Source: a virus. From it: DNA of 64,000 bases. The translations under genes were made by a program, and so were the position numbers. The DNA lies in IMG/VR virus record IMGVR_UViG_3300034072_001149, positions 32,001 through 96,000 of that record; one strand, 5' to 3'. The notes under the pieces were generated by a model. It was given only the letters and a program-made list of their open reading frames with translations. It did not search any database and had not been told where the DNA came from. This document shows positions 3,107 through 60,257 of the stretch, piece after piece; positions within the stretch are counted from its first letter, which is position 1, and every line of letters starts with the position of its first letter.

Positions 3107-4330
3107 TTACAAAAACTTCAGGTTGTTGGTGTTGATACCAACCAGACCTAGGTAGTCTGCAGCGTTACCCAGCGACGATGCGCTGTTGGTGAGCTCCAGG
3201 TAACCATAACGGGTCATGAACGAAACCACTGGCTCGAAAGTCTGTGGATCGATAACAACGCCCGAAGAGGTCAGTGGGACGTATGGGCAGTAGTATGCCG
3301 CAGCGTCGATTTCACCCTGGCCTTTGTAACCAACGAGAACAGGAGTGTCGTCCTGTGCGTACTGGTCAACGTAGACGCGCAGCGAGTTGTTCAGCGTACC
3401 AACATACTTGGTGTTGGTTGGTGCTTCAAACACGCCTTCGGTGGTGCGAGCGAACGCCGAAGTAGTAGCAGACTGCAGGATGGTCAGAGCGGTTGGGCTC
3501 ACAACAATCCAGTTAGCTGCGCCACGACGGGTGCGCTGTGCGATCAGGTTAGCCTGACGGTTGATCAGAACCGAAAGAGCAGCATGTTCGTCACCGACGA
3601 ACGTTGCGGTGCCCGAAACCGAACCCTGGTCATAGATAGCAGTCGCAGCACCTGGAAGCATACGCAGCGAGTTCAGGATTTCCTGGTCGATTTCTGCGGT
3701 GATTTCCTGTGCCAGAGCAGCCATGATTTCAGCTTCAATGTCGATGCCCTGCTGAGCCTGTGCGTCCTGCTGAGCCTCAAAGGTCCAACGAGCGCTCAGA
3801 CGACGAGTCTTAGCTTCGACGGTTTCCTTCAGGATCTGGATCGACAGACGGTTGCCTGGGCGACCTTCAAGAGCTGCGGTCGAAGCAGCACGTGGGTTCT
3901 GAGCGTTGGTTTCACCGTTACCCGAATATGCCTTAGCAATATCGAATGGGCTTAGTGCTTCTGCGCCAGCGGTAACACCAGCAGCGTTGTCCGCATAGCG
4001 AACGCGCAGGGTGTGGATCTGAGCAACAGGACCAGTCATTGGCTGAACGCCGATGATTTCGTTAGCAATAACGGTTGGCATAACGCGACGCAGAACTGGA
4101 AGGATAACCTTGTTCATTGTTGCCACGTTACCAGCAGCGGTGCCACCAGCGGAAGCTGTTTCCATCAGAGGGTTACGACGCATCAGATCCTGGCGAGTGT
4201 TCTCTAGAACAGTCTCCATAACCTTCTGCTTGTTGGGGTTTGGCGAGCCATCCATGTTGACCTGCAGGTCGCGACCCTCGCAGAGAGCCTCCTTGGTAGC
4301 CTTCCAATTGCTTTCAAAAAGATTAGCCAT
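3107..4330 (-). CDS. Major capsid protein (T4 gp23-like)
   Basis: GVQPMTGP, VEAKTRRLSARWTFEAQQD, EITAEIDQEI, YCPYVPL and FMTRYG motifs. Confidence 0.97.
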   Translation of the reverse strand: MANLFESNWKATKEALCEGRDLQVNMDGSPNPNKQKVMETVLENTRQDLMRRNPLMETASAGGTAAGNVATMNKVILPVLRRVMPTVIANEIIGVQPMTGPVAQIHTLRVRYADNAAGVTAGAEALSPFDIAKAYSGNGETNAQNPRAASTAALEGRPGNRLSIQILKETVEAKTRRLSARWTFEAQQDAQAQQGIDIEAEIMAALAQEITAEIDQEILNSLRMLPGAATAIYDQGSVSGTATFVGDEHAALSVLINRQANLIAQRTRRGAANWIVVSPTALTILQSATTSAFARTTEGVFEAPTNTKYVGTLNNSLRVYVDQYAQDDTPVLVGYKGQGEIDAAAYYCPYVPLTSSGVVIDPQTFEPVVSFMTRYGYLELTNSASSLGNAADYLGLVGINTNNLKFL

Positions 4331-55945: not shown

Positions 55946-57214
55946 TCAATGATACTTAAAGTTTTTTATATCCAAACTGTCATTCTGGAAAAGTATATCA
56001 GCTGAAGTTAGCCTTCCTCCTTTGCCGCAGCCAGTATCCATGAAGATTGCCTCTCCTCCCTTGGATCCCTTGACCTTAAGTGGCTGAGTAGTGGATCTGA
56101 TGTCGTGTCCTACCATGACTCTTTTTCCAGAAGGAATTCTGTTAACCCATTCATATATGCGAGTTGGGTAACCATCAGCTCTTGGCTCCGAGGTATTGTC
56201 AACTTCTCCAAACAGTGCCATAGTTTCAAATTTGCCTATAAGCCTAGGGGAATCGATATCAAACATTTCCGGTTCAGCGGCGCCATGTGTAAAAAGAGTA
56301 TTGCCAATGACCCAATGATGTCTGGATAGACCAAGAAGGGCTTTGTATCGAATCTCAAATTTCCTTCTTGCTTCTGATCCCAATTCTTCAATAGCCCTGG
56401 TAGTGACTTTGTTTCCATCACTCAATCGAACTTTGACATCATTATGTTTGATCTGCTCTAACCATCTTTCAATCTTGCGTTCGTGATTGCCAATCAAACA
56501 AAGCCCGCGCCCGCGTGACACTACATTGTAGACCTGATCAACACATTCTATGGGATTGGGTCCATAGTCAATTATGTCACCTAGAAAGATACAAAAAAGG
56601 TTTCTCTTAGCTGCCCATTCTATTGCTGCCTTGAGAGGTTCTAGCATGGCATGGACGTCACCAATTACCATAAGACCCCTGAAACCCAGTTTTTCAATGT
56701 TCTCTTTGAGAAGATCATTTGACAGTTTGGGAACTACTTCAAAGTTCTCCTTGCGTGTATCAATTACATTGGCGACACCATCCCCGCGCAATATATCTCG
56801 TTCGTTGTTTCTGAAGATATGTTCCTGCTTGGTAATGGCAGATATTGCTCCTGGTCGCCAACTGTTTCTAGCATCAATCAGCTTGGATTCCAGACTTCGA
56901 TTACAGACGATATAGAAGATGGGAACCCCCACCTTTAAGGCTATATCAGCCAGGCTAATCCTGTCTTTTTTCCTCAAATTAGTGGCATCAACTACTACTC
57001 GCTCGCCCAATTCTAGCTTGAGTTGAGCTCTACGATACACCTCTCTGAATACAATGTCATTGATATTTGTTTTCTGGACATCACCACAAAGCTCATAGCG
57101 AATAGCTTCACTACTCATGATTTCGTGATCAGCAAACATTTTAGACAGAGTTGTCTTGCCGCTGTTGGCCGGACCCACAAAGATCACCAAACTATGAAGT
57201 GGTATTCTTTTCAT
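55946..57214 (-). CDS. Polynucleotide kinase-phosphatase (Pnkp-like, no ligase domain)
   Basis: GPANSGKT and VVDATN kinase motifs; GDVH, GDIIDYGP, GNHE, GH and DTG metallophosphatase motifs. Confidence 0.85.
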   Translation of the reverse strand: MKRIPLHSLVIFVGPANSGKTTLSKMFADHEIMSSEAIRYELCGDVQKTNINDIVFREVYRRAQLKLELGERVVVDATNLRKKDRISLADIALKVGVPIFYIVCNRSLESKLIDARNSWRPGAISAITKQEHIFRNNERDILRGDGVANVIDTRKENFEVVPKLSNDLLKENIEKLGFRGLMVIGDVHAMLEPLKAAIEWAAKRNLFCIFLGDIIDYGPNPIECVDQVYNVVSRGRGLCLIGNHERKIERWLEQIKHNDVKVRLSDGNKVTTRAIEELGSEARRKFEIRYKALLGLSRHHWVIGNTLFTHGAAEPEMFDIDSPRLIGKFETMALFGEVDNTSEPRADGYPTRIYEWVNRIPSGKRVMVGHDIRSTTQPLKVKGSKGGEAIFMDTGCGKGGRLTSADILFQNDSLDIKNFKYH

Positions 57215-57287: not shown

Positions 57288-57734
57288 ATGCGCCGCTCTT
57301 ATCTAATTGCCAGCCTTGCTGGTGCTATTGCTCTATTTACAACCGGATCACTTGTGGTGGTTTCCAACCGGGCATCTAAGATTGAGTCATTCAAAACCAA
57401 GCTTTCAGAGCTTACATTTTGTAAAACGGCTTATGAGATTGCCAGTTCTCACCCCAGCTATATCTCACGATTCGTTGAAGACGAACGGACCAAAGAAGAA
57501 CTTCTCAAGGAGTCAGAACTCCTGAACTCCAAAAAGGAGAAGATTGATCTTCTTATTGATCAGCATATCAAGGAAGCGGCCGAATTACCGCTGGATGACA
57601 TCTCGGTGCGAACCCTTATTGATAAAACCACCTGGGACGCAGAACTTGAAGCGGTTCAAGCGGCAGGTTGGGTCGAGGAACACGAAGCATTCCTCGACCA
57701 AATTGACGAAATCTGCAAACCATACTTCAAGTAA
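57288..57734 (+). CDS. Hypothetical membrane-anchored/exported protein
   Basis: GAGG SD; N-terminal hydrophobic segment. Confidence 0.65.
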   Translation: MRRSYLIASLAGAIALFTTGSLVVVSNRASKIESFKTKLSELTFCKTAYEIASSHPSYISRFVEDERTKEELLKESELLNSKKEKIDLLIDQHIKEAAELPLDDISVRTLIDKTTWDAELEAVQAAGWVEEHEAFLDQIDEICKPYFK

Positions 57735-58299
57735 TGGTCGCATGACCTTCTGATGAAATACGGAGAGTCCCGCGCTTGACTCGAAGGGAACCCTTAGTGC
57801 TAGGATGCTCAGGGTTCTCTCGAGTAGTAAACCCAGTCTGACATTCCATGTGATGAACATAGAACGTTTTACCGCGAGCTTTGACTACCCACATGGGAAT
57901 GAAATCAAACTCCATGGACTTCTTGTTGAAGTGGAAGTCGATGTTTTTGCTTTCAAACTCCAGAGGGAACTCCTTGAACTGCTCCGCAATCCCTCTCTTC
58001 ATGGACTTGATCTGATTCCAACGAATCTTAGCCGTTTCCAAAGCAGTCATGAGCTTGCGGGCAATTGCCCTTTTGTGACCATGTTCGATTCGCAGTTTAC
58101 TGATACGATCCCGAACAGGATCCAACATAGGATCCAGATGGTTCTCATATTCACTAAACTTTCGTTCTAGTGCCTTGATCTGGAACTTGCTTTCTCGGAC
58201 CTCCGAAGAGGCGTGAGCATAAAGCTCACGCCAATCGGAACGCCACTCAATGTAACCCTGATAATCGGTGAAGTTGGGCTGAATACCGTGGACGCTCAT
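57727..58299 (-). CDS. Hypothetical protein
   Basis: AGGAG SD; YIEWRSDWRELY shared with 58311..58565. Confidence 0.7.
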   Translation of the reverse strand: MSVHGIQPNFTDYQGYIEWRSDWRELYAHASSEVRESKFQIKALERKFSEYENHLDPMLDPVRDRISKLRIEHGHKRAIARKLMTALETAKIRWNQIKSMKRGIAEQFKEFPLEFESKNIDFHFNKKSMEFDFIPMWVVKARGKTFYVHHMECQTGFTTRENPEHPSTKGSLRVKRGTLRISSEGHATIT

Positions 58300-58310
58300 T
58301 TTGATTCTCC

Positions 58311-58565
58311 TTAAGCAGCGGTTGCGACAGATGCCGCTGCCAGCTGATTATTCTTGAACTCCGTTGCTGCGGTGCGTTCCAGCATCAGCTGATTAGCACG
58401 GACACGCAGGCGGTGTAGCTGGCTCTGTAGACCAGAGTTATCGTTGCCCTTGTTTTCCCGCTGTTCTCGCTTGTTGGCGCGAATCTCGAGAGTGAGCTCC
58501 TTGTATTGAGCTCGCCAATCAGCACGATAAGCCAGGTATTCTTCACGAGTAGTAAAAGTAAACAT
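58311..58565 (-). CDS. Hypothetical protein
   Basis: YLAYRADWRAQY; paralogous to the N-terminus of 57727..58299. Confidence 0.7.
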   Translation of the reverse strand: MFTFTTREEYLAYRADWRAQYKELTLEIRANKREQRENKGNDNSGLQSQLHRLRVRANQLMLERTAATEFKNNQLAAASVATAA

Positions 58566-58876
58566 TAGATTTCTCCTCCAAAAGTCAGTTTAAAAAGCAG
58601 TGCGGTGTCACGGTTCTCGAAATACCACTTATCGGCACCACCGTTGTGCCAAAAGCTACCCTGTTGTTCCTTACACCAGGTCATCATTTCCGACAACGGA
58701 CCACCTTTTTGAATATTAACGGTGGTACATTCCGGCCAAGCTTCCCGGAGTCGCTTACTCCAGTGTTTGTCTCGAGTGCTCTGTCCAACTGGTGGACAGA
58801 ACTTGAGGCCACATTCCCTCCAAGCTTTGATATAAGCTTGGGTGGCAATTGACTGGGCTGTGTTGAAGTCCATCAT
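58565..58876 (-). CDS. Hypothetical protein (DAxxFKL family)
   Basis: MMTWC...WYFENRDTALLFKLTF. Confidence 0.7.
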   Translation of the reverse strand: MMDFNTAQSIATQAYIKAWRECGLKFCPPVGQSTRDKHWSKRLREAWPECTTVNIQKGGPLSEMMTWCKEQQGSFWHNGGADKWYFENRDTALLFKLTFGGEI

Positions 58877-59334
58877 CAGCTGACCGCCGAGAATCGCTTC
58901 GTGATTGCGTGGGCTTGTTCTTTGGTGCAGGGACCAATGCCAAGCGCAGTCACAATGGGCTGACCATCAAATGCCGTTCCCGGCACTACATGGTTCTTGT
59001 CAATGATGAGGGAAGTAATCAGACCAGCTTCCTGAGCCGCCTCATACGCTCGCAGGATCGCTGCTTCGTTCTTGGCTTTGAGGATGATCTGAGTGCCGAT
59101 AAAGTCCGGGCCCTGGTAAACGCGCAGGAGCTCAGGATCTCGACGGCTAGCAAGAAGCACACAATTCTTGGCAGCGTGACAAGCCTGGCTTGCCAACTTG
59201 CCTGGCTTCATATCCAGGTCGCCTCGAATGATGCTGTAGATGCGAAGCTTTTCAGACGCAGCTTCGAAGGCGTCATAGTCGTTGTCGTTGTCGTAACGAG
59301 CAGCGGCTTCCTACAAGAAAGAATTCGTGATCAT
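58876..59334 (-). CDS. Peptidyl-tRNA hydrolase Pth2 with in-frame TAG at codon 8
   Basis: Promoter plus AAGGA SD plus ATG 59334; MITNSFL*EAAARY...KLRIYSIIRGDLDMKPGKLASQACHA...TALGIGP; TAG at 59311-59313. Confidence 0.85.
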
Positions 59335-59375
59335 TGTCGTTCCTTTTGGTTACTGTCCAACATCGGACAAGCTTC

Positions 59376-59403
59376 AACATAAGAGGGTTTCAGGATATGT
59401 CAA
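59376..59403 (-). promoter_or_regulatory. Sigma70-type early promoter of the Pth2 gene
   Basis: TTGACA (59403-59398), 16 nt, TATGTT (59381-59376). Confidence 0.6.
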
Positions 59404-59792: not shown

Positions 59793-59867
59793 TTAAATCA
59801 AACCATAGACGGATTGATAGTGAGGAGGAGCCCGAGGAGCCTAGTGTTGGGTAAGAATCTTTTTCAT
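59793..59867 (-). CDS. Candidate mini-ORF/leader peptide MKKILTQH*APRAPPHYQSVYGLI with in-frame TAG and RAPP motif
   Basis: ATG 3 nt after the upstream TAA; TAG at 59841-59843; CGG GCT CCT CCT; TAA at 59793-59795. Confidence 0.5.
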
Positions 59868-59870
59868 GCC

Positions 59871-60257
59871 TTACTTATACTGATCTAACATATAAGAGTC
59901 AATATTCAAGGACAGTTTGGCAATGAGAGCATCATTGGCTGTTTGGGTTCTGACTACTAGGCGCATCTGATATTCAGAACCACTTGAAAAGTCATCATCA
60001 ATTTCCATAAAACTAAAGAAATGACCTTTTATACAATCCAAGATCTGACGGAAGATTTCGGGATTGGGCCAATAGAAAAATGAAGGATAAACACAAACAA
60101 ATGGCTTACCATAAAATACGAAGTCAAGTGGGGTATCAGACGTCCAGTCTATGGTAGCGACTGGTTCAGTAAATCTCCGATTAAGAGAACCGTAGATACA
60201 GTCTTTACTAGTCCTGTAGACTGTTTTGACTAGCGGTCGACTAGTTGAGGAGATCAC
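59871..60257 (-). CDS. Hypothetical protein
   Basis: Fills the gap in a co-directional cluster; NDALIAKL tail; start uncertain. Confidence 0.55.
   Translation of the reverse strand: MISSTSRPLVKTVYRTSKDCIYGSLNRRFTEPVATIDWTSDTPLDFVFYGKPFVCVYPSFFYWPNPEIFRQILDCIKGHFFSFMEIDDDFSSGSEYQMRLVVRTQTANDALIAKLSLNIDSYMLDQYK

What the first reader, a model, noticed from the sequence alone, without database searches (positions are those of the whole stretch)
59212..59345. Pth2 gene requires readthrough of an in-frame TAG at codon 8
Seen: promoter TTGACA-16-TATGTT, SD AAGGA 6 nt before ATG 59334, then ATG ATC ACG AAT TCT TTC TTG TAG GAA GCC..., continuing in frame into KLRIYSIIRGDLDMKPGKLASQACHA. There is no in-frame ATG/GTG/TTG between the TAG and M(59211). 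Established: the first beta-strand and R.DL.M..GK.AAQ..HA motif is core to Pth2, so the 111-aa ORF from 59211 would be truncated. Inference: the full 152-aa enzyme is made only when UAG is suppressed. Otherwise a 7-aa minigene product results.
Basis: partly seen in the sequence, partly recalled or inferred. Interest (0 to 1): 0.9.

Follow-up and report, generated by a model that had tools for sequence, protein, structure and literature searches.

The report
Suppressor-tRNA-gated phage Pth2 gene
A giant phage that otherwise uses the normal genetic code keeps a UAG stop as the eighth codon of a tRNA-recycling-enzyme gene and carries its own UAG-reading tRNA 2.2 kb upstream, so the enzyme is probably made only when that tRNA overrides the stop, which would give these puzzling phage tRNAs a concrete conserved target.

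Summary
On the minus strand a sigma-70-like promoter and an AAGGA Shine-Dalgarno precede ATG 59334. Six sense codons follow, then an in-frame TAG at 59313-59311. After it come 33 open codons without a start codon, running into a PF01981 (PTH2) domain that begins 10 residues before the only later ATG (59211).

The TAG is neither decay nor error. Every relative of at least 51% identity keeps the layout: SD, ATG, 2-8 sense codons, an in-frame stop, then an open frame into the domain. That is more than 20 loci, about a dozen distinct leader types, including two cultured phages. Both flanks evolve like coding sequence. One relative has no Met at position 42. Distant Pth2 genes (37% identity or less) start normally.

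The stop matches the phage's own suppressor tRNA. Eleven genomes or contigs with TAG, plus other fragments, carry a tRNA-CUA. Atu_ph07 has TGA and a tRNA-UCA. The genome is not recoded, and pth2 is the only long ORF built this way in three genomes.

I conclude that full-length Pth2 is made by suppressor-tRNA readthrough (about 0.8). Why the gene is gated, and which residue is inserted, remain unknown. No experiment exists, and I found no published description. Earlier agents of this scan reported the same design on other genomes.

The parts
59376..59403 (-). sigma-70-like promoter, TTGACA-16-TATGTT
   Evidence: 10 of 12 consensus matches. A TTGACA-type -35 stands at the same place in Phosso, L051 and Atu_ph07. 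Consensus match only; not shown to be active.
59354..59369 (-). 5' UTR hairpin, TGTCC-GATGTT-GGACA, between the -10 and the SD
   Evidence: a 6-pair consensus stem in 10 relatives, 2 pairs with compensatory changes. Similar hairpins are visible by eye in Phosso, L049 and L050. Role unknown.
59341..59345 (-). Shine-Dalgarno AAGGA, 6 nt before the leader ATG
   Evidence: An AAGGA or GGAG motif precedes the leader ATG in nearly all relatives, and never precedes a codon downstream of the stop.
59314..59334 (-). 7-codon leader (M-I-T-N-S-F-L)
   Evidence: In group A the NSFL codons vary only synonymously: AAT/AAC, TCT/TCG, TTG/CTG.
59311..59313 (-). in-frame TAG, codon 8: the gate
   Evidence: Invariant in 8 of 8 group-A loci. 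TAG is kept in all other TAG lineages, and Atu_ph07 has TGA.
59212..59310 (-). codons 9-41: open, no start codon; two predicted helices plus strand beta1 of the PTH2 fold
   Evidence: no ATG/GTG/TTG. (variable sites by codon position 7/6/22). (H5-17, H20-28, E31-37). (domain alignment begins at residue 32).
58876..59334 (-). whole readthrough CDS, 152 aa plus terminal TGA (protein P0001)
58876..59211 (-). 111-aa ORF from Met42. Public annotations of Phosso and Atu_ph07 call this ORF; it lacks beta1.
61556..61632 (-). tRNA with anticodon CUA (amber suppressor), encoded CCA, anticodon loop CUCUAAA
   Evidence: ARAGORN. (Rfam, 73 bits); 11 homologues, loop invariant, 16 of 21 pairs with compensatory changes.
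60715..61503 (-). 262-aa class IIa aaRS catalytic core, closest to alpha2 GlyRS, with no anticodon-binding domain. Candidate charging enzyme for the suppressor (inferred).
   Evidence: Lies downstream of the tRNA-CUA in the window, in 7 group-A loci and in Phosso.
59793..59867 (-). second amber-containing mini-ORF in the same cluster: MKKILTQH-TAG-APRAPP..., upstream of the 119-aa ORF
   Evidence: The TAG-APRAPP element is conserved in L044, L048 and L053.
57727..58876 (-). three downstream ORFs (103, 84 and 190 aa). The first two overlap their predecessor by 1 nt, so they may be translationally coupled to pth2.
   Evidence: 4-nt overlaps are annotated at the same junctions in Phosso and Atu_ph07. 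Coupling is inferred.

Best explanation
The pth2 gene is a single 152-codon reading frame with a deliberate UAG at codon 8.

Proposed mechanism:
- Ribosomes load at the SD and ATG of the leader and reach UAG after seven residues.
- If release factor 1 wins, only a heptapeptide is made.
- If the phage's own tRNA(CUA), encoded 2.2 kb upstream on the same strand, decodes the UAG, translation continues. It passes through a two-helix N-terminal extension into the complete Pth2 fold.
- Translation probably continues into the overlapping downstream ORFs.

Pth2 output is therefore set by the activity of the phage suppressor tRNA. This is a natural feed-forward gate.

Shown: the anatomy, its conservation, coding constraint on both sides of the stop, and agreement between stop type and suppressor anticodon.

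Inferred:
- that the tRNA is expressed and charged, possibly by the adjacent GlyRS-like core;
- that readthrough actually occurs;
- the purpose of the gate. The simplest proposal is that a tRNA-recycling enzyme is tied to the level of stop-codon suppression. The early position of the stop would keep the aborted product harmless.
For: 1. Anatomy.

2. Need for the upstream part.
- The PTH2 HMM and PDB alignments start at residue 32.
- AF2 places beta1 at residues 31-37.
- L156 has no Met42, and its next canonical start lies inside the active-site helix.

3. Conservation.
- All loci of at least 51% identity show SD, ATG, 2-8 codons, a stop, then an open frame.
- Pth2 genes of 37% identity or less have ordinary starts: phiM12, Xoo-sp13, RsoM2USA, Baka, L165, L166.

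4. Coding constraint.
- Variable sites by codon position are 2/1/4 in the leader, 7/6/22 in codons 9-41 and 18/16/84 in the domain. The TAG is invariant.

5. Matching suppressor.
- A tRNA-CUA lies 2.6-4.8 kb upstream on the same strand in 7 IMG/VR relatives and in further metagenome loci.
- It is also present in Phosso, G007 and G011.
- G001 and G003 have only CUA suppressors.
- Atu_ph07 has TGA in the leader and a single suppressor, tRNA-UCA (PMC6102473). That tRNA is not a homologue of the CUA family, and Atu_ph07 lacks the GlyRS-like gene. The stop therefore switched when the suppressor was replaced.

6. The tRNA family is under structural selection and its CUCUAAA loop is invariant.

7. 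The frame is always preserved across leaders of different length, so neither a frameshift nor a bypass is needed.

8. The base after the stop is a purine in all lineages but one. From my own knowledge of the work of Bossi and of Miller and Albertini, this context favours amber suppression.
Against: - There is no experimental evidence of any kind. Transcription, charging of the tRNA, readthrough and enzyme activity are all untested.
- TAG also ends 8-12% of the ordinary genes of these phages, and presumably many host genes. A strong suppressor should therefore be costly, which argues for partial or timed suppression.
- The stop-anticodon covariation rests on one independent switch (Atu_ph07). 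The TAG lineages share ancestry.
- Three TAG contigs showed no CUA tRNA, but they are fragments, 5-58% complete.
- The canonical Pth2 D-x-G-x-T motif reads D-K-N-H-V or D-S-G-H-V here. The NCBIfam equivalog cutoffs are not reached. The enzymatic activity may therefore differ from textbook Pth2.
Confidence: 0.8

Rival explanations
1. The leader is a separate regulatory mini-ORF (a uORF or 'minigene'). Pth2 is made by reinitiation or by a non-canonical start downstream of the stop, independently of any suppressor tRNA.
For: - Leaders of 2-8 codons fall in the size range of classical minigenes, where peptidyl-tRNA drop-off is highest and Pth counteracts it (PMC2490762, PMC10192219).
- L162 has an ATG right at beta1.
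- Atu_ph07 has ATT directly after its TGA.
Against: - No ATG, GTG or TTG occurs between the stop and Met42 in nearly all lineages (L162 excepted), and no SD-like motif precedes any near-cognate codon.
- The codon after the stop differs between lineages: GAA, GTT, CAA, ATT, GAC, AAC.
- The residues directly after the stop are conserved as protein and align from the first residue after it.
- The leader and the body are always in the same frame despite differing leader lengths. Reinitiation does not require this.
- This model does not explain why the stop type follows the suppressor anticodon.
Confidence: 0.08
2. The stop is read through, but by host means: near-cognate host tRNAs, weak RF1 termination on very short nascent chains, or phage inhibition of release factors. 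The phage tRNA(CUA) serves other targets.
For: - Very early stops may terminate poorly (minigene literature, PMC2490762).
- The phages carry up to three different CUA tRNAs. That is more than one gate needs, so other uses are likely.
Against: - The TAG-to-TGA switch in Atu_ph07 accompanies a switch of suppressor from CUA to UCA.
- One CUA tRNA family is linked to pth2 within 5 kb on the same strand in more than 10 genomes.
- Spontaneous readthrough of UAG in bacteria is usually very low (own knowledge).
Confidence: 0.08
3. The gene is a pseudogene, or the TAG is an assembly or sequencing error.
For: Gene callers and the public annotations of Phosso and Atu_ph07 treat only the 111-aa ORF as the gene.
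Against: - The same stop occurs in more than 20 independent assemblies, including two cultured phages.
- pth2 is the most conserved gene of its neighbourhood, at 87-94% identity against 45-87% for its neighbours.
- There are no further stops or frameshifts.
- Substitutions on both sides of the stop are biased to the third codon position.
Confidence: 0.01

Closest known systems
Stop-codon-recoded phages with their own suppressor tRNAs (TAG or TGA reassigned; crAss-like, Lak and others; PMC7886860, PMC10879173, PMC11210395)
   Same: A phage-encoded suppressor tRNA decodes in-frame stop codons in phage genes, while the host uses the standard code. A regulatory or timing role has been proposed.
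   Different: In those phages, dozens to hundreds of in-frame stops are spread through late genes. Here the genome is standard-code: TAG shows no excess among stops flanked by long open frames, and TAG ends 8-12% of genes. Only one long ORF carries the stop, always within the first 3-9 codons, plus a mini-ORF in some relatives.
prfB (RF2) autoregulation through an early in-frame UGA
   Same: An early in-frame stop in a gene for a translation factor makes its synthesis depend on competition at that stop.
   Different: prfB needs a +1 frameshift and senses its own product. Here the body is in the zero frame in every lineage, and the sensed quantity would be suppressor tRNA against RF1. Feedback by Pth2 itself is only a speculation.
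Synthetic suppressor-tRNA feed-forward gate (PMC7969014)
   Same: Amber codons near the start of a gene, combined with a co-regulated suppressor tRNA, make expression conditional and reduce leak. The design logic is the same.
   Different: That system is engineered in E. coli. This one is natural, conserved across a phage clade, and sits on a tRNA-recycling enzyme.
Phage lambda bar and other minigenes (PMC2490762)
   Same: SD plus ATG plus 2-8 codons plus a stop. The product of abortive translation would be a short peptidyl-tRNA, which is the substrate class of Pth.
   Different: Minigenes are free-standing and toxic in Pth-deficient cells. This leader is fused in frame to a conserved protein body.
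Pth2 / Bit1 family (PF01981; PDB 1q7s, 1rlk, 2zv3, 1wn2, 1rzw)
   Same: Same fold and the same R-x-DL-x-M-x-x-GK-x-A-x-Q-x-x-HA and GIGP motifs.
   Different: - A 30-residue helical N-terminal extension.
- The D-x-G-x-T motif replaced by D-K-N-H-V or D-S-G-H-V.
- A 7-residue insertion before the last strand.
- Scores below the NCBIfam equivalog cutoffs.

Membership tests
PTH2 (Pfam PF01981) | HMM score above the gathering threshold over the whole domain | tested here: met
   73.4 bits against 23; residues 32-149 match profile positions 3-113 of 115. This holds only when the TAG is read through.
PTH2 (Pfam PF01981) | NCBIfam equivalog level (Pth2 PRK04322 / arch_pth2 TIGR00283) | tested here: not met
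   61.7 bits against a cutoff of 126, and 54.5 against 82. It is a family member, but not certified as an equivalog.
PTH2 (Pfam PF01981) | Conserved Lys of the GK motif and Asp of the D-x-G-x-T motif. Their catalytic role is recalled from the S. solfataricus work, which is not in the held library. | tested here: inconclusive
   K46 is nearly invariant and D112 is invariant, and both align with the canonical residues. The Thr four residues after the Asp is Val or Ile in this clade.
PTH2 (Pfam PF01981) | Peptidyl-tRNA hydrolase activity | not testable with these tools
   Needs an enzyme assay or complementation of E. coli pth(Ts).
Genome-wide stop-codon reassignment (code 15-like phage) | Many in-frame TAGs inside conserved genes; TAG rarely used as a terminator | tested here: not met
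   no TAG excess among stops flanked by long open frames in G000, G001 or G003. TAG ends 8-12% of genes; pth2 is the only clear hit for the leader pattern.
Programmed readthrough by a cognate suppressor tRNA | A tRNA in the same genome whose anticodon pairs with the in-frame stop | tested here: met
Programmed readthrough by a cognate suppressor tRNA | Readthrough product detected; tRNA expressed and aminoacylated | not testable with these tools
No proteomics data are available.
Pyrrolysine system (ARAGORN labels the tRNA 'Pyl') | A PylRS/pylBCD set and the atypical tRNA-Pyl architecture | tested here: not met
   The label follows from the anticodon alone. The tRNA is a canonical cloverleaf (73 bits to RF00005). 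The adjacent class II enzyme is GlyRS-like, not PylRS. pylBCD was not searched for specifically.
prfB-type frameshift autoregulation | The body of the gene lies in the +1 frame relative to the leader | tested here: not met
   Leader and body are in the same frame in every locus.

The most novel reading that the evidence does not exclude
The tRNA(CUA), the anticodon-blind GlyRS-like mini-synthetase and the amber-gated genes (pth2, its overlapping downstream ORFs, and the TAG-APRAPP leader) form a self-contained orthogonal suppression circuit. The phage would bring its own charging enzyme for a stop-reading tRNA and use early UAG codons as sensors of that tRNA's activity. Pth2 would be produced in proportion to suppression, or would feed back on it, as a homeostat for a translation system that the phage has deliberately perturbed. 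That would be a natural analogue of engineered orthogonal aaRS/tRNA gates and of prfB autoregulation combined.
Probability: 0.25. Interest if true: 0.9.

Novelty: new variant of a known kind. Interest (0 to 1): 0.77.

Why it matters
Many large phages with a standard genetic code carry suppressor tRNAs, and no target for these tRNAs has been identified. The Atu_ph07 paper could only point to the abundance of UGA stops (PMC6102473). The AP-J-162 paper called the tRNA 'Pyl' (PMC11242549).

A conserved, gene-specific, early in-frame stop that follows the suppressor's anticodon gives these tRNAs a defined natural substrate. The hypothesis is easy to test in cultured phage-host pairs.

The finding also corrects public annotation: the pth2 genes of Phosso and Atu_ph07 are annotated from the internal Met. 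It warns that gene callers miss such genes. In this window the longest-ORF rule even prefers an antisense shadow ORF.

Finally, it points to a possibly orthogonal minimal synthetase/tRNA pair, which would interest genetic-code engineers.

Tried and rejected
- **Genome-wide recoding.** ORF-length gains and counts of stops flanked by long open frames show nothing special for TAG. Rejected.
- **BLASTP scan for other conserved in-frame TAGs** against G001 and G003, with the stop written as X. The genomes are 71-81% identical at the nucleotide level, so wrong-frame alignments swamped the scan. Abandoned as uninformative. It does not exclude mid-gene TAGs.
- **Three TAGs in one + strand frame at window 3149-4205**, aligned to Q/Q/K in G003. 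This is the antisense shadow of the 407-aa capsid-like gene at 3107-4330. False lead.
- **Long open frames after TAG-ended ORFs.** Long ORFs ending in TAG seemed to be followed by unusually long open frames (p = 6e-8). The effect vanished once shadow ORFs were removed by greedy gene calling (p = 0.18). There is therefore no evidence for systematic TAG extensions or for back-up stops.
- **Frameshift or bypass models.** Unnecessary, because leader and body share a frame everywhere.
- **Pyrrolysine.** The label comes from the anticodon only.
- **Reading the residue at the TAG position from homologues.** Uninterrupted Pth2 genes (phiM12, Baka and others) have unrelated N-terminal extensions, so this was not possible.
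- **Tool limits.** PMC2253226 is not held, so the catalytic-residue statement rests on memory.

Full report
**Setting**

The window is bases 32001-96000 of a single 159.2-kb phage contig. By nucleotide similarity it is a fragment of a roughly 440-kb jumbo phage. It is 81% identical over 148 kb to the complete IMG/VR genome G001, and 71% over 96 kb to G003. The cultured relatives are Sinorhizobium phage Phosso and Agrobacterium phage Atu_ph07.

**Observation**

All elements lie on the minus strand.
- Promoter: TTGACA-16-TATGTT at 59403-59376.
- 5' UTR: a small conserved hairpin at 59369-59354.
- Shine-Dalgarno: AAGGA at 59345-59341, followed by ATG 59334.
- Leader: six further sense codons, giving M-I-T-N-S-F-L.
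- Gate: TAG at 59313-59311.
- After the gate: 33 in-frame codons with no ATG, GTG or TTG, then ATG 59211 (Met42).
- Terminal stop: TGA at 58878-58876.

Read through, the product is 152 aa. Pfam PTH2 matches residues 32-149, profile positions 3-113 of 115, at 73.4 bits. Alignments to solved Pth2 and Bit1 structures also begin at residues 32-34. An AF2 model (pLDDT 76) gives helices at 5-17 and 20-28, then strand beta1 at 31-37. The 111-aa ORF from Met42 would therefore lack one of the four core strands and half of the R-x-DL-x-M motif.

**Is the stop real and selected?**

The two closest cultured phages have the same layout. Their records annotate only the internal-Met ORF.
- Phosso: ATG AAG TAT TAG, in frame.
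- Atu_ph07: ATG ATT GGC GAA CAC TTT TGA, in frame.

Scans of IMG/VR and of JGI metagenomes gave more than 20 further loci of 51-93% identity. Every one has an SD, an ATG, 2-8 sense codons, an in-frame stop, and an open frame without a start codon into the domain. The leaders are MLTNSFL-type, MKTEFL, MKY, MTYN, MSY, MTM, MTAFT, MDFT, MSEFT, MNVHLPFR and ML, all followed by TAG, and MIGEHF followed by TGA.

Among eight close relatives the TAG is invariant. The N, S and L codons in front of it change only synonymously. Variable sites by codon position are:

| Region | Position 1 | Position 2 | Position 3 |
|---|---|---|---|
| Leader | 2 | 1 | 4 |
| Codons 9-41 | 7 | 6 | 22 |
| Domain | 18 | 16 | 84 |

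Both flanks are therefore translated in this frame.

In L156 position 42 is Leu. Its first canonical in-frame start after the TAG is a TTG inside the GK-L-A-S-Q motif. A downstream start cannot give a functional protein there.

pth2 is the best-conserved gene of its neighbourhood.

Pth2 genes of more distant phages and contigs (37% identity or less) have ordinary starts a few residues before beta1, or uninterrupted extensions. These are phiM12, Xoo-sp13, RsoM2USA, Baka, L165 and L166. The interrupted leader is therefore a trait of this subfamily, not of Pth2 in general.

**The matching tRNA**

The contig has two tRNAs. One has anticodon CUA, at 61632-61556 on the same strand, 2.2 kb upstream.
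- Homologous CUA tRNAs lie 2.6-4.8 kb upstream of pth2 in the seven close IMG/VR relatives and in several metagenome loci.
- Phosso has one 4.6 kb upstream and a second elsewhere.
- G007 and G011 have one elsewhere.
- The complete genomes G001 and G003 have two and three CUA tRNAs, and no UCA or UUA tRNA.
- The family keeps the loop CUCUAAA invariant, while 16 of 21 stem pairs show compensatory changes.

Atu_ph07 is the one phage with TGA in the leader. Its single suppressor is a tRNA-UCA (PMC6102473). That tRNA is not a homologue of the CUA family, and Atu_ph07 has lost the neighbouring synthetase-like gene. The suppressor was therefore replaced, and the leader stop changed with it.

This is one independent switch, so the covariation is suggestive rather than statistical. 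Three TAG contigs without a detected CUA tRNA are fragments, 5-58% complete.

**Is the genome recoded?**

No.
- Treating TAG as sense gives no special gain in long ORFs.
- TAG is not enriched among stops flanked by two long open stretches in G000, G001 or G003.
- TAG ends 8-12% of greedy-called genes.
- I scanned for the pattern 'SD, ATG, up to 9 codons, a stop, then at least 90 open codons without an early start'. pth2 was the only TAG hit in G000 and G001, and one of two in G003. The other G003 hit looks non-coding.

A second amber element does exist in the cluster. It is a mini-ORF, MKKILTQH-TAG-APRAPP..., at 59867-59793, upstream of the 119-aa ORF. The TAG-APRAPP part is conserved in three relatives. 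Another first-stage note raised it. I checked only its conservation.

**Surroundings**

The order on the minus strand is:
1. CysRS
2. a membrane protein
3. a K+-channel-like protein
4. tRNA-CUA
5. a 262-aa class IIa synthetase core
6. a DSP-like phosphatase
7. a 128-aa ORF
8. the amber mini-ORF
9. a 119-aa ORF
10. pth2
11. ORFs of 103, 84 and 190 aa
12. a P-loop kinase plus metallophosphatase (Pnkp-like)
13. HNH

. This is a neighbourhood of translation and tRNA-repair genes.

The synthetase core is closest to the catalytic domain of alpha2 GlyRS, both by sequence and by fold. It has no anticodon-binding domain. It follows the tRNA in the window, in seven relatives and in Phosso. An anticodon-blind enzyme next to a suppressor tRNA is an obvious candidate to charge it, but this is inference.

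The pth2 stop overlaps the ATG of the next ORF (TGATG). The same junctions overlap by 4 nt in Phosso and Atu_ph07. The gate may therefore extend to the coupled downstream ORFs.

**Mechanism**

The best-supported reading is competition at codon 8 between RF1 and the phage suppressor tRNA. The full protein is made only on suppression.

Three features fit this.
- The frame is preserved across leaders of all lengths.
- The base after the stop is a purine in all lineages but one. This context favours suppression (own knowledge).
- The stop is always very early, so the aborted product is a harmless 2-8-residue peptide. The engineered amber feed-forward gate follows the same logic (PMC7969014).

Leaders of this length are also the window where peptidyl-tRNA drop-off is greatest and where Pth matters (PMC2490762, PMC10192219). 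This may explain why this particular gene carries the gate, but I cannot derive a convincing feedback loop from it.

The purpose remains open. Candidates are coupling a tRNA-recycling enzyme to the level of stop suppression, timing of expression, and feedback on the suppressor.

**Caveats**

- Nothing is experimental.
- TAG is still a normal terminator for many phage genes, so suppression is presumably partial.
- The clade replaces the canonical D-x-G-x-T motif by D-K-N-H-V or D-S-G-H-V, and it scores below the NCBIfam equivalog cutoffs. 'Pth2-family protein' is safer than 'peptidyl-tRNA hydrolase'.

**Literature and earlier notes**

Searches for Pth2 or peptidyl-tRNA hydrolase combined with suppressor tRNA and phage found no description of this arrangement. 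The Atu_ph07 and AP-J-162 papers list the suppressor and the pth genes without linking them.

Earlier agents of this scan described the same design on other genomes. They include a reported UAA case with an ochre suppressor, which I did not test. My conclusions rest on the calls cited here.

**Verdict**

It is a new variant of a known kind: phage suppressor-tRNA readthrough used as a gene-specific gate rather than as a change of code.

Noticed in passing
window 59793-59867 (-): A mini-ORF, MKKILTQH-TAG-APRAPPHYQSVYGLI, lies upstream of the 119-aa ORF. The TAG followed by APRAPP is conserved in L044, L048 and L053. RAPP resembles known ribosome-arrest motifs. It is a second amber-dependent element in the same cluster.
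   Followed up: partly
window 60715-61503 (-): A 262-aa class IIa aaRS catalytic core, closest to alpha2 GlyRS, without an anticodon-binding domain. It starts 52 nt after the CCA of the tRNA-CUA. The linkage to the tRNA is conserved in 8 relatives and absent from Atu_ph07.
   Followed up: partly
L001 3058-3390; L002 3058-3390; L145 385-663: Public annotations of pth2 in Phosso and Atu_ph07 start at the internal Met and miss the leader, the stop and beta1. Xoo-sp13 pth2 is also annotated from the internal Met, although an ordinary ATG lies 5 residues before beta1.
   Followed up: yes
window 58909-59382 (+): A 157-aa antisense shadow ORF is longer than the 111-aa pth2 ORF. A longest-ORF gene caller picks it instead.
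   Followed up: yes
window 59354-59369 (-): A 5' UTR hairpin, TGTCC-GATGTT-GGACA, lies between the -10 and the SD. It is kept in relatives with compensatory changes. Function unknown.
   Followed up: partly
window 61644-62105 (-): A 153-aa protein with a potassium-channel pore (T-V-G-Y-G; PF07885, 7.5e-12) lies directly upstream of the suppressor tRNA.
   Followed up: no
window 55946-57214 (-) and 62767-63999 (-): A P-loop kinase plus metallophosphatase (Pnkp-like; PHROG 246, NinI-like phosphatase) and a CysRS-like gene flank the cluster. Atu_ph07 has an RnlA RNA ligase nearby. This suggests a tRNA-repair and translation module.
   Followed up: no
G001 99130-99204 and 293258-293333; G003 153582-153658, 185829-185902 and 394833-394908; Phosso L019 and L025: Complete relatives carry two or three different tRNA-CUA genes. 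Their bodies are only 65-79% identical to any canonical isoacceptor in the same genomes (nearest by anticodon label: Leu, Lys, Gln). That is more suppressors than one gate needs, so other targets are likely.
   Followed up: no
L132 and L139 (G012 77-80 kb); L115 and L117 (G012 156-158 kb): The contig that holds the 51%-identity relative L114 has dense tandem arrays of about 13 tRNA-Leu genes and many tRNA-Ala/Arg genes. Some have odd anticodon loops that ARAGORN calls '???'.
   Followed up: no
window 60241-60243 (-): The DSP-like phosphatase gene ends in TAG. Ten further sense codons follow before TAG TAA, and the overlapping 128-aa ORF has an uncertain GTG start.
   Followed up: no
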